A stretch of 64,000 bases of DNA. Origin: Escherichia coli. GTDB lineage: Bacteria > Pseudomonadota > Gammaproteobacteria > Enterobacterales > Enterobacteriaceae. The translations under genes were made by a program, and so were the position numbers. The notes beneath the pieces were generated by a model, which saw only the letters and a list, made by a program, of their open reading frames with translations, had not been told where the DNA came from and did not search any database. Positions 21,662 through 45,658 of the stretch are shown piece after piece. Location: the NCBI RefSeq assembly GCF_051903065.1, contig NZ_CP178438.1. One strand, written 5' to 3'. How positions within the stretch are numbered: position 1 is the stretch's first letter; every line of letters begins with the position of its first letter.

Positions 21662-21800
21662 AGTTTGCTCCTGCCATAACGTGAAGAAGCAATGACCTGG
21701 TGGTCCGTGACTTCCCTACGCTGGCATTATCCAGATCAGGTGATACGGGTATTTCTCAGCCTTCACGCAGAAGGGCACCCCGAGTCGTTTGGTTGCGATG
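21662..21800 (-). promoter_or_regulatory. TPP riboswitch (thi-box) in thiM 5' leader
   Basis: Minus-strand reads ...cggggtgcccttctgcgtgaaggctgagaaatacccgtatcacctgatctggataatgccagcgtagggaa..., the canonical E. coli thiM aptamer, followed by the SD-sequestering segment ggcaggagcaaactATG. Confidence 0.88.
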
Positions 21801-44418: not shown

Positions 44419-44527
44419 TATACTCTAGATAATTCAAGTCGCAGCACATGCAACTTGAAGTATGACGAGTATAGCTTTATTAAAGGGGGAAGCGGTTTTC
44501 CCCCTTAGATGCGTTTCAATTTGCCCG

Positions 44528-44617
44528 TTACTTCAACAAATCAATCAACCGTAACAGAGCCACTAATAACTCCAGTACGGCAATGAGCACGATTAACTTT
44601 TGTGTCAGCGTGTCCAT
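44528..44617 (-). CDS. Type I toxin, ZorO/ZorP-like 29-aa hydrophobic peptide (copy 1)
   Basis: Minus-strand ORF MDTLTQKLIVLIAVLELLVALLRLIDLLK with strong SD (taaggagagcggATG); downstream terminator hairpin gggggaa-gcgg-ttttccccc. Confidence 0.85.
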   Translation of the reverse strand: MDTLTQKLIVLIAVLELLVALLRLIDLLK

Positions 44618-44802
44618 CCGCTCTCCTTATTAAGGAGCGCAACACCAGCACCTTACCCTTACACTGCCTGTCGATACTGGTTTACGTATGTTGGTACGAA
44701 ACGTTGCTCTCCGGATCAGGGCACCGCCTGCGGCACCACCCGTCCAGCAGCCAGGACTTAAAATTGGTCCGATCCGGCACAACCTCCCAACGGGCAGGAT
44801 TA

Positions 44803-44849
44803 TAAATCTCATTCACTGAATTGCAATGGAGTGTGGATATGGTTATAAT
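44803..44849. promoter_or_regulatory. Back-to-back sigma70 promoters sharing one palindromic -35 hexamer TTGCAA (copy 1)
   Basis: -35 ttgcaa 44821-44826; rightward -10 tataat 44844-44849 (17-bp spacer) for orz; leftward -10 (plus-strand attata 44803-44808, 16-bp spacer) for zor. Confidence 0.55.
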
Positions 44850-44856
44850 TTATTCG

Positions 44857-44936
44857 TTGGTACGAAATGTTGCACAATCAGCAAGTTAGCGTCACTGTAG
44901 TAAATAAAAGAACCTGCCTCACCAGCAGGTTTTTTT
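44857..44936 (+). ncRNA. Orz-type antitoxin sRNA (copy 1)
   Basis: Starts after the tataat box, ends at hairpin acctgcctcaccagcaggt + T7; 5' region guugguacgaaauguugc pairs over 18 nt (one G.U) with the zor 5' UTR (plus 44693-44710); ends approximate. Confidence 0.65.
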
Positions 44937-45135
44937 ATTTTCTGCGATCTACTTTCCAGATATTTTTTGCCAATAGCCCACCATAAATATTCACATCCCG
45001 GTCAAATGGTGCGTTGAATATAAAATCGATGAACTTATAAATAAACATGAGTTATATGATGAATTAATAAAAACAGTAATCATTTTATTAAAGGGGGAAG
45101 CGGTTTTCCCCCTTAGATGCGTTTCAATTTGCCCG

Positions 45136-45225
45136 TTACTTCAACAAATCAATCAACCGTAACAGAGCTACTAATAGCTCCAGTACGGCAATGAGCACGG
45201 TTAACTTTTGTGTCAGCGTGTCCAT
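45136..45225 (-). CDS. zorO: Type I toxin ZorO-like 29-aa peptide (copy 2)
   Basis: Minus-strand ORF MDTLTQKLTVLIAVLELLVALLRLIDLLK (differs from copy 1 at residue 9, T vs I); assignment of zorO vs zorP to the two copies is uncertain. Confidence 0.8.
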   Translation of the reverse strand: MDTLTQKLTVLIAVLELLVALLRLIDLLK

Positions 45226-45406
45226 CCGCTCTCCTTATTAAGGAGCGCAACACCAGCACCTTACCCTTACACTGCCTGTCGATACTGGTTTACGTATGTT
45301 GGACCACGATGTTGCACTCCGGATCAGGGCACCACCTGCAGCACCACCCGTCCGGTAGCCAGGACTTGAAATAGGTTCGATCCGGCGCAACGTCCCAACG
45401 GTCTGG

Positions 45407-45457
45407 ATTATAAATCTCATTATCTTAATTGCAACGGGGTCCAGCCGTGGTTATAAT
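45407..45457. promoter_or_regulatory. Back-to-back sigma70 promoters sharing palindromic -35 TTGCAA (copy 2)
   Basis: -35 ttgcaa 45429-45434; rightward tataat 45452-45457; leftward -10 as plus-strand attata 45407-45412. Confidence 0.55.
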
Positions 45458-45464
45458 TCGTTCG

Positions 45465-45547
45465 TTGGAACACGATGTTGCACAGGCTGTGGTGTTAGGC
45501 CTGAAAATAGTAAATAAAAGAACCTGCCTCACCAGCAGGTTTTTTTA
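45465..45547 (+). ncRNA. Orz-type antitoxin sRNA (copy 2)
   Basis: guuggaacacgauguugcac complementary (one mismatch) to the copy-2 zor 5' UTR; terminator acctgcctcaccagcaggt + T-run; ends approximate. Confidence 0.65.
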
Positions 45548-45658
45548 TTTACTATGATCTGCTTTCCAGATATTTTTTGCTCAAACAACTAATGCGCCAA
45601 ACATTTATTGCGCGTAAAATATCGTTTATTTCATTAATACATTTCAGGGATGAATATA

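What the first reader, a model, noticed from the sequence alone, without database searches (positions are those of the whole stretch)
44803..44849. Divergent zor and orz promoters share a single self-complementary -35 hexamer (TTGCAA)
TTGCAA is its own reverse complement. It lies 17 bp upstream of a consensus TATAAT on the plus strand (orz) and 16 bp upstream of TATAAT on the minus strand (zor). Because the two promoters use the same -35 element, RNA polymerase cannot occupy both at once, which gives a built-in competition between toxin and antitoxin transcription. The same architecture recurs in copy 2 (45407-45457). The predicted zor start gives a 5' UTR of roughly 175-180 nt.
Basis: seen in the sequence. 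Interest (0 to 1): 0.55.

Follow-up and report, generated by a model that had tools for sequence, protein, structure and literature searches.

The report
zor/orz promoters share one −35 box
In this E. coli window a small toxin gene (zor) and its antitoxin RNA gene (orz) are read in opposite directions from two promoters that use the same six-base palindrome as their −35 box; the boxes and start sites are real but already published, and the idea that the two promoters compete for RNA polymerase is reasonable but untested and probably a small effect.

Summary
Both tandem copies carry ATTATA-N16-TTGCAA-N17-TATAAT (44799-44849 and 45407-45457). This is the known zorO-orzO/zorP-orzP type I toxin-antitoxin locus between yehK and yehL of E. 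coli. Published figures place zorO +1 at 44791 (174-nt leader) and OrzO +1 at 44856. Both fit the boxes, and the two starts are 65 bp apart and exactly symmetric about the TTGCAA centre. In 12 copies (8 distinct cores, four Escherichia species) all 18 hexamer positions and both spacer lengths are invariant, while 20 of 33 spacer positions vary (p = 1e-5).

The architecture is not new. Wen 2014 boxes these elements, and Shore 2024 lists -35 TTGCAA and -10 TATAAT for both genes; only one TTGCAA lies between the two -10 boxes.

Mutual exclusion of RNA polymerase follows from its footprint (about 46 bp of overlap). A regulatory "built-in competition" is not shown. Work on overlapping and bidirectional E. 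coli promoters finds that interference needs very high occupancy. TTGCAA matches the consensus at only 4 of 6 positions.

Verdict: a real, conserved, already described promoter pair of a known kind (overlapping divergent promoters). The competition idea is a modest, testable hypothesis.

The parts
44528..44617 (-). zor copy 1 coding sequence (29 aa plus stop), MDTLTQKLIVLIAVLELLVALLRLIDLLK
   Evidence: translation
44618..44791 (-). zor copy 1 5' UTR, 174 nt. +1 = 44791 (G). RBS AAGGAG at 44628..44623 = +164..+169. OrzO target at 44690-44707 = +85..+102.
   Evidence: Sequence combined with published figures: 174-nt UTR and RBS +164..+169 (PMC5397157). The fold pairs +1..+5 with +98..+102.
44799..44804 (-). 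zor copy 1 -10 hexamer TATAAT (positions -13..-8), followed by the discriminator CCTGCCC
   Evidence: invariant in 12 copies
44821..44826 (.). Shared palindromic -35 hexamer TTGCAA, read by both promoters. The conserved block is AATTGCAA.
   Evidence: listed as the -35 of both zor and orz in PMC11264685 Table 3
44844..44849 (+). orz copy 1 -10 hexamer TATAAT (positions -12..-7). The conserved block is TGGTTATAATT.
44856..44937 (+). Orz copy 1 sRNA, about 82 nt. +1 = G at 44856. Its first 18 nt are complementary to the zor UTR (one G-U). Terminator stem at 44911-44931 followed by a T run.
   Evidence: Rfam RF02083, 44863-44936, 88.8 bits. 5' end from PMC3919570. 3' end by analogy with the MG1655 Term-seq 3' end.
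45136..45225 (-). zor copy 2 coding sequence (29 aa plus stop), MDTLTQKLTVLIAVLELLVALLRLIDLLK
   Evidence: translation
45226..45399 (-). zor copy 2 5' UTR, predicted 174 nt, +1 at 45399 by homology with copy 1
   Evidence: alignment; fold
45407..45457 (.). Copy 2 core: zor -10 at 45407-45412 (-), shared -35 TTGCAA at 45429-45434, orz -10 at 45452-45457 (+); spacers 16 and 17
45464..45547 (+). Orz copy 2 sRNA, 84 nt. In the alignment its promoter core and the Orz region through the terminator match the MG1655-type orz-only locus L005.
   Evidence: Rfam RF02083, 45471-45546, 99.9 bits. In MG1655, the predicted +1 at 2,204,402 and the Term-seq 3' end at 2,204,485 give 84 nt.

Best explanation
These are two sigma-70 promoters arranged tail-to-tail that drive the zor toxin mRNA leftward and the Orz antitoxin sRNA rightward.

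Anatomy. Both promoters use one self-complementary -35 hexamer. Each has its own consensus -10 box. The starts lie 65 bp apart, each 29 nt beyond the shared hexamer. TTGCAA is the only palindromic hexamer that keeps the critical TTG in both orientations, and it is among the best balanced in-register compromises (4/6 each way).

Mechanism. Each initiation event commits RNA polymerase to one direction, and a bound polymerase sterically excludes binding in the other direction. I infer that how initiations are split between the two directions is set by the features that differ between the arms. These are the 16-bp AT-rich spacer and GC-rich discriminator for zor, against the 17-bp GC-rich spacer and AT-richer discriminator for orz.

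Size of the effect. I expect the resulting interference to be small under ordinary conditions. Control of the toxin would then remain mainly post-transcriptional: leader structure, 5' processing and OrzO pairing.

Shown: the sequence anatomy, its conservation, and agreement with published mapped starts. Inferred from established polymerase footprints: mutual exclusion. Inferred by analogy only: the size of any competition. I put the chance of a 2-fold or larger reciprocal effect at about 0.3.
For: - Boxes and spacers.
- Locus identity.
- Starts mapped by primer extension for both mRNAs and both sRNAs: Fozo 2010.
- Positions recovered from the 174-nt UTR and RBS +164..+169, and from OrzO's first 18 nt being the pairing region. 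These give 44791 and 44856.
- In MG1655 the same core predicts an 84-nt OrzP that ends at the Term-seq 3' end 2,204,485. This matches the ~85-nt northern band.
- Purifying selection on the elements and on the geometry: 0/18 hexamer columns variable against 20/33 spacer columns (Fisher p = 1e-5), and spacer lengths fixed in 8 distinct cores from E. coli, Escherichia sp. E1V33, E. whittamii and MOD1-EC7003.
- 99.4% or more conservation in 2,439 loci (Shore 2024).
- TTGCAA is the unique TTG-starting palindrome and is among six hexamers tied for the best balanced 4/6 + 4/6 match.
- Polymerase footprint of -55..+20 and the exclusion model: Bendtsen 2011.
Against: - The -35 assignment is a prediction in the published papers. 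No mutation of it has been reported in the texts I could read.
- With a consensus -10 box, either promoter might depend little on the -35. Conservation of TTGCAA could then be driven by one promoter alone.
- Relative strength cannot be read from the sequence, because spacer and discriminator features point in opposite directions.
- The supplementary figure holding the primer-extension gels (Fozo 2010, Fig. S4) is not held. Start positions were therefore reconstructed from numbers in later papers.
- No genome-wide start-site table could be consulted.
Confidence: 0.8

Rival explanations
1. Strong built-in competition. The two promoters are occupied often enough that polymerase bound at orz substantially represses zor, and the reverse. 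Any shift in one promoter, for example with growth phase, ppGpp or supercoiling, then reciprocally changes the other. This adds a transcriptional layer to toxin control.
For: - Footprints overlap by about 46 bp, so binding is exclusive.
- Both promoters have a consensus -10 box and near-optimal spacers.
- Orz sRNAs are abundant in exponential phase and fall in stationary phase.
- Raising activity in one direction does repress the other at shared -10 promoters (section 15 of PMC12825309).
- The geometry is strictly conserved.
Against: - Interference needs very high occupancy. A 2-bp -35 change or a 1-bp -10 change in a fully consensus promoter abolished it.
- Five natural bidirectional promoters showed none at basal level.
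- The shared -35 is only 4/6.
- No reciprocal expression data exist for zor and orz in the papers read.
Confidence: 0.3
2. The sharing is incidental or a relic. The region is a pseudo-palindrome left by an inverted duplication, or it was shaped by both RNAs needing the same 5' sequence. The two promoters then behave as independent constitutive promoters with no functional coupling.
For: - The symmetry extends to the start regions. CCAACG at 44787-44792 mirrors CGTTGG at 44855-44860. Both RNAs begin GUUGG, and the starts are exactly equidistant from the dyad centre.
- Both 5' ends are predicted to pair with the same CCAAC/GCAAC target in the zor leader. This agrees with the probing-defined EAP region.
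- Overlapping divergent promoters are common: about 14% of E. coli forward promoters.
- Promoter hexamers of unrelated genes are also conserved at 99% or more within E. coli.
Against: - The spacers have diverged heavily while the hexamers and both spacer lengths have not. The geometry is therefore maintained and not merely inherited.
- This does not exclude independence of the two promoters. It only shows that each is under selection.
Confidence: 0.45
3. The conserved AATTGCAA block is, or overlaps, an operator for an unidentified DNA-binding protein that shuts or opens both promoters together.
For: - The conserved blocks are wider than the hexamers: AATTGCAA, GATTATAAATCTC and TGGTTATAATT.
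- The authors report unpublished carbon-source sensitivity of endogenous zorO and orzO expression.
- Regulation of the locus is described as unknown.
Against: - No regulator is reported.
- The extra conserved bases are few and adjoin promoter elements, where polymerase contacts or UP-like effects could explain them.
- The longer palindrome around TTGCAA in copy 1 (I1) is absent from copy 2.
Confidence: 0.1
4. Positive coupling. Transcription leaving one promoter puts negative supercoils behind it and stimulates the divergent partner. On this reading the close back-to-back arrangement co-activates toxin and antitoxin transcription and does not set them against each other.
For: - Transcription-driven topological coupling of divergent promoters is documented (PMC5175336, listed).
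- The zor promoter has a GC-rich discriminator. From general knowledge of stringent and rRNA-type promoters, that class tends to be supercoiling-sensitive.
Against: - Orz is an untranslated RNA of 82-84 nt, so it should generate little anchored supercoiling.
- No data exist for this locus.
- The documented case (PMC5175336) concerns non-overlapping promoters.
Confidence: 0.1

Closest known systems
zorO-orzO / zorP-orzP type I toxin-antitoxin locus of E. coli (Fozo 2010; Wen 2014, 2017; Shore 2024)
   Same: It is this locus. It has the same yehK-yehL position, 29-aa Zor peptides, Orz sRNAs, a 174-nt leader, and the same published -35 TTGCAA and -10 TATAAT for both genes.
   Different: Nothing structural differs. 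The window's strain differs from EDL933-like genomes by a few substitutions (98.5% identity). The published texts I could read do not comment on the palindrome or on polymerase competition.
Overlapping divergent ('tail-to-tail') promoters with RNA polymerase as repressor (Bendtsen et al. 2011; aroP P1/P3; lambda PR/PRM)
   Same: The promoters are divergent and their polymerase footprints overlap, so binding is mutually exclusive. The reverse start lies within the -80..+20 zone used to define overlap (here -65).
   Different: Here the overlap is exact and in register on one palindromic -35 hexamer, and no regulator is known. Interference has been demonstrated in those systems but not here.
Bidirectional promoters that share a -10 region (Warman et al. 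2021, 2026)
   Same: [quoted passage not shown]
   Different: Those have starts 7-25 bp apart (mode 18) with a shared -10 and separate -35 boxes. Here the starts are 65 bp apart with a shared -35 and separate -10 boxes, which is the mirror arrangement. The defining spacing is not met.
[quoted passage not shown]
   Same: The toxin mRNA has a long 5' leader. A divergently transcribed sRNA uses its 5' end to pair with that leader.
   Different: The published promoters of shoB (GTGACC/TAAAAT) and ohsC (TTGTAA/CATAAT) are separate. In the tisB/istR region of MG1655 the scan found only one promoter-like site and no shared -35 pair.

Membership tests
zor-orz type I toxin-antitoxin locus | Small hydrophobic 29-aa Zor ORF | tested here: met
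   MDTLTQKL(I/T)VLIAVLELLVALLRLIDLLK
zor-orz type I toxin-antitoxin locus | Divergent Orz sRNA that matches the OrzO-P family | tested here: met
   Rfam RF02083, 88.8 and 99.9 bits against a gathering score of 60
zor-orz type I toxin-antitoxin locus | About 18 nt of complementarity between the Orz 5' end and the zor 5' UTR | tested here: met
   44856-44873 against 44690-44707, 18 nt with one G-U. Copy 2 is analogous.
zor-orz type I toxin-antitoxin locus | Location between yehI/yehK and yehL | tested here: met
   Matching E. coli chromosomes carry yehK upstream and yehL downstream
zor-orz type I toxin-antitoxin locus | Zor is toxic when overproduced, and Orz represses it | not testable with these tools
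   Shown experimentally for EDL933 (PMC3919570)
sigma-70 promoter | -35 and -10 hexamers separated by 16-18 bp | tested here: met
   10/12 matches on each strand, spacers 16 and 17
sigma-70 promoter | Transcription start 6-8 nt downstream of the -10 box | tested here: met
   Published figures place +1 at 44791 and 44856, which is 7 and 6 nt beyond the hexamers. The original gels were not seen.
sigma-70 promoter | Activity lost when a hexamer is mutated, and polymerase binds | not testable with these tools
   No such experiment was found in the papers read
Overlapping divergent promoters with polymerase interference | The opposing start lies within -80..+20, so the -40..+10 regions overlap | tested here: met
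   Starts are 65 bp apart and the shared hexamer is at -35..-30 of both
Overlapping divergent promoters with polymerase interference | Weakening one promoter raises output of the other | not testable with these tools
   Needs in vitro transcription or reporters
Bidirectional promoter in the sense of Warman et al. | Divergent starts 7-25 bp apart around a shared -10 region | tested here: not met
   65 bp apart, with two separate -10 boxes

The most novel reading that the evidence does not exclude
The palindromic -35 acts as an orientation toggle. Each polymerase that lands commits either to toxin or to antitoxin transcription. The bias is set by the unequal spacers and discriminators, and it shifts with growth rate, ppGpp or supercoiling. 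The locus would then produce anticorrelated, cell-to-cell variable bursts of zor and Orz, which could seed toxin-expressing subpopulations. This would be a shared -35 counterpart of the shared -10 bidirectional promoters, with a physiological output.
Probability: 0.12. Interest if true: 0.55.

Novelty: already known. Interest (0 to 1): 0.2.

Why it matters
Transcriptional control of zor-orz is still described as unknown. If polymerase exclusion at the shared -35 measurably coupled toxin and antitoxin synthesis, it would add a transcriptional layer to a system so far explained only at the RNA level. It would also give a natural example of the mirror image of shared -10 bidirectional promoters. 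As things stand, the promoter anatomy is published, the class (overlapping divergent promoters) is common in E. coli, and analogous experiments suggest the effect is small. The finding mainly confirms existing annotation.

Tried and rejected
- The Fozo 2010 supplement with the primer-extension figure is not held.
- Genome-wide start-site tables: the Ettwiller 2016 supplements are held only in part and contain no nearby coordinates. Thomason 2015 is not held. Only a Term-seq 3' end for OrzP in MG1655 could be recovered.
- Bogati 2022 (J Bacteriol) is not held.
- The Shore 2024 supplement has no text on the hexamers.
- Phrase searches for shared or overlapping -35 elements returned nothing relevant.
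Conservation therefore rests on close relatives.
- I scanned the other divergent type I loci of MG1655 for the same architecture.
  - shoB/ohsC has a promoter-like site that shares the ohsC -35, but it is not the published shoB promoter. I do not count it as a second case.
  - tisB/istR and dinQ/agrB showed nothing comparable.
- I considered predicting which promoter dominates from spacer and discriminator features. I dropped this because the features conflict.
- I recalled from memory a resemblance of GTTGCAAT to the CytR octamer. I did not pursue it, because there are no flanking CRP sites and no tool to test it.

Full report
**What is in the sequence**

The window between 44480 and 45560 holds two tandem units of about 605 bp. 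In unit 1 the plus strand reads ATTATA (44799-44804), 16 nt, TTGCAA (44821-44826), 17 nt, TATAAT (44844-44849). Unit 2 repeats this at 45407-45412, 45429-45434 and 45452-45457.

The promoter scan reports the same four sites, each with 10 of 12 matches. The spacer is 17 on the plus strand and 16 on the minus strand. The 18-base pattern occurs twice in the window, against none in 100 shuffles. A whole-window scan of my own found these as the only tail-to-tail promoter-like pairs that share a -35. Shuffles gave a mean of 0.38 such pairs, and 0.04 with both members at 10/12 or better.

Two details need correcting. Copy 1 begins at 44799, not 44803. TTGCAA matches TTGACA at 4 of 6 positions, not 5.

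**What the locus is**

- Both plus-strand RNAs match Rfam OrzO-P (RF02083), at 88.8 and 99.9 bits.
- The minus-strand ORFs encode the 29-aa peptides MDTLTQKL(I/T)VLIAVLELLVALLRLIDLLK.
- The 1161-bp segment is 100% identical to an E. coli chromosome and is found in 5424 of 5426 complete E. coli genomes. It lies between yehK and yehL.
- RefSeq does not annotate either gene.

This is the zorO-orzO/zorP-orzP type I toxin-antitoxin locus (Fozo 2010, PMC2887945; Wen 2014, PMC3919570).

**Do mapped starts fit the boxes?**

Fozo 2010 mapped the starts of both toxin mRNAs and both sRNAs by primer extension. The figure itself is not held, so I recovered the positions from later numbers.

- Wen 2017 gives a 174-nt zorO 5' UTR with the RBS at +164..+169. 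With the ATG at 44617 and AAGGAG at 44628..44623, both figures give +1 = 44791. That is 7 nt beyond the minus-strand TATAAT.
- Wen 2014 shows that the first 18 nt of OrzO are the pairing region, and that deleting 3 nt leaves 15 nt of continuous pairing. Complementarity to the zor leader begins at 44856, so OrzO +1 = 44856. That is 6 nt beyond the plus-strand TATAAT.
- In MG1655, which keeps only orz, the same core predicts +1 at 2,204,402. Term-seq reports a 3' end at 2,204,485 (Adams 2021 supplement). This gives an 84-nt RNA, matching the ~85-nt northern band.

The two starts are 65 bp apart.

**Is the arrangement maintained?**

I aligned 12 copies (8 distinct cores) from this window, four other E. 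coli genomes, Escherichia sp. E1V33, E. whittamii and Escherichia sp. MOD1-EC7003.

- None of the 18 hexamer columns varies, but 20 of the 33 spacer columns do (Fisher p = 1e-5).
- Both spacer lengths are fixed.
- The spacers are the most variable part of the unit. They vary at 61% of columns, against 10-31% in the coding sequence, leader and Orz.
- The conserved blocks run slightly beyond the hexamers: GATTATAAATCTC, AATTGCAA and TGGTTATAATT.
- Shore 2024 found 99.4% or more identity of these elements in 2,439 loci. The same study found comparable conservation for promoters of unrelated genes, so within-species identity alone says little.

**Is it new?**

No. Wen 2014 Fig. 1A boxes the predicted -35 and -10 elements and marks the mapped starts. 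Shore 2024 Table 3 lists "-35 (TTGCAA)" and "-10 (TATAAT)" for both zor and orz, with identical -35 percentages in the two columns. Only one TTGCAA lies between the two -10 boxes, so the published -35 of both genes is this hexamer.

None of the texts I could read mentions the palindrome or polymerase competition. A 2025 review says regulation of the locus remains to be worked out.

**How it most likely works**

TTGCAA is the only palindromic hexamer that begins with TTG. Among in-register shared hexamers it is one of six that reach the best possible balanced score of 4/6 in both directions, and it keeps the most important TTG for each.

A polymerase on a promoter covers about -55 to +20. For these two promoters that means about 46 bp in common, including the single sigma region 4 site. 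Simultaneous occupancy is therefore excluded. This step is an inference from established footprints, not a test.

Whether exclusion matters depends on occupancy.

- In the model and synthetic constructs of Bendtsen 2011, interference scaled with the time polymerase spends on a promoter. A fully consensus reverse promoter repressed its neighbour about 4-fold. One -10 change or two -35 changes abolished that effect.
- Warman 2026 found no competition at the basal activity of five natural shared -10 promoters. Competition appeared only when one side was strengthened or activated.

Here both -10 boxes are consensus, but the shared -35 is two bases from consensus. I therefore expect weak interference and put the chance of a 2-fold or larger reciprocal effect at about 0.3.

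The two arms differ consistently. The zor arm has a 16-bp AT-rich spacer and a discriminator that is 4-6/7 GC. The orz arm has a 17-bp GC-rich spacer and a discriminator that is 1-3/6 GC. These features pull in opposite directions for strength, so I make no prediction of which promoter dominates.

**A further symmetry**

CCAACG (44787-44792) mirrors CGTTGG (44855-44860), and copy 2 has the same feature. Both RNAs therefore begin 5'-GUUGG. Both starts lie exactly 32.5 bp from the centre of TTGCAA, because 16+6+7 = 17+6+6 = 29 nt.

Folding the zor leader pairs +1..+5 with CCAAC at +98..+102, and +9..+13 with +85..+89. That is the OrzO target. This fits the published finding that the first 28 nt close the +73..+102 "EAP" region and that OrzO binds its 3' part.

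The toxin mRNA's own 5' end thus resembles the antitoxin's 5' end. This could explain the extended palindrome either by function or by an ancient inverted duplication. I could not decide between the two.

**Comparison with known systems**

The arrangement belongs to the common class of overlapping divergent promoters: about 14% of E. coli forward promoters overlap a reverse one. It is the mirror image of shared -10 bidirectional promoters and fails their defining 7-25-bp start spacing.

For shoB/ohsC, the published promoter elements are separate for the two genes. In the tisB/istR region of MG1655 the scan found a single promoter-like site and no shared -35 pair. In MG1655 a weak promoter-like site does share the ohsC -35 and would give the same 65-bp geometry. 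It is not the published shoB promoter.

**Verdict**

The anatomy is already known. Interest is low to moderate.

Noticed in passing
window 44787-44792 / 44855-44860; 45392-45400 / 45463-45471: The pseudo-palindrome extends to the start sites (CCAACG/CGTTGG). Both RNAs begin GUUGG, and both starts are exactly 32.5 bp from the centre of TTGCAA. Folds pair the zor 5' end (+1..+5, +9..+13) with the OrzO target (+85..+102), so the toxin leader's 5' end resembles the antitoxin's 5' end.
   Followed up: partly
window 44805-44820 and 44827-44843 (and copy 2): The promoter spacers are the most variable part of the whole unit: 61% of columns vary, against 10-31% in the CDS, leader and Orz. Their lengths never change. 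The zor spacer is AT-rich and the orz spacer is GC-rich in every copy.
   Followed up: partly
L008 (MG1655) 6310-6490 = NC_000913.3 2,204,309-2,204,489: The orz-only locus of K-12 keeps the complete zor promoter and about 29 nt of the zor leader. If active, this promoter would fire antisense towards the 3' end of yehK. Term-seq also lists a second plus-strand 3' end inside OrzP, at 2,204,446.
   Followed up: partly
L009 (MG1655 shoB-ohsC) 663-713: A minus-strand promoter-like site (TTTACA-16-TAGCAT) overlaps the ohsC -35 (TTGTAA) by 5 bp. It would put a start 65 bp from the ohsC start, the same geometry as zor/orz. It is not the published shoB promoter.
   Followed up: partly
window 44863-44936, 45471-45546: The Rfam OrzO-P model starts 7 nt downstream of the mapped Orz 5' end. 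It therefore omits part of the toxin-pairing region.
   Followed up: no
window 44480-45560; loci L004-L008: Neither the zor ORFs nor the orz sRNAs are annotated in the RefSeq E. coli records examined, including MG1655's expressed OrzP.
   Followed up: no
window 44911-44931 and 45521-45541: The Orz terminator hairpin is flanked by T-rich runs on both strands and scores as a terminator on the minus strand too. It may act bidirectionally between the tandem units.
   Followed up: no
window 3923-4008 (+) and 21696-21792 (-): A CyaR/RyeE sRNA (100.7 bits) and a TPP riboswitch (71.2 bits) are elsewhere in the window. No tRNA genes were found.
   Followed up: no
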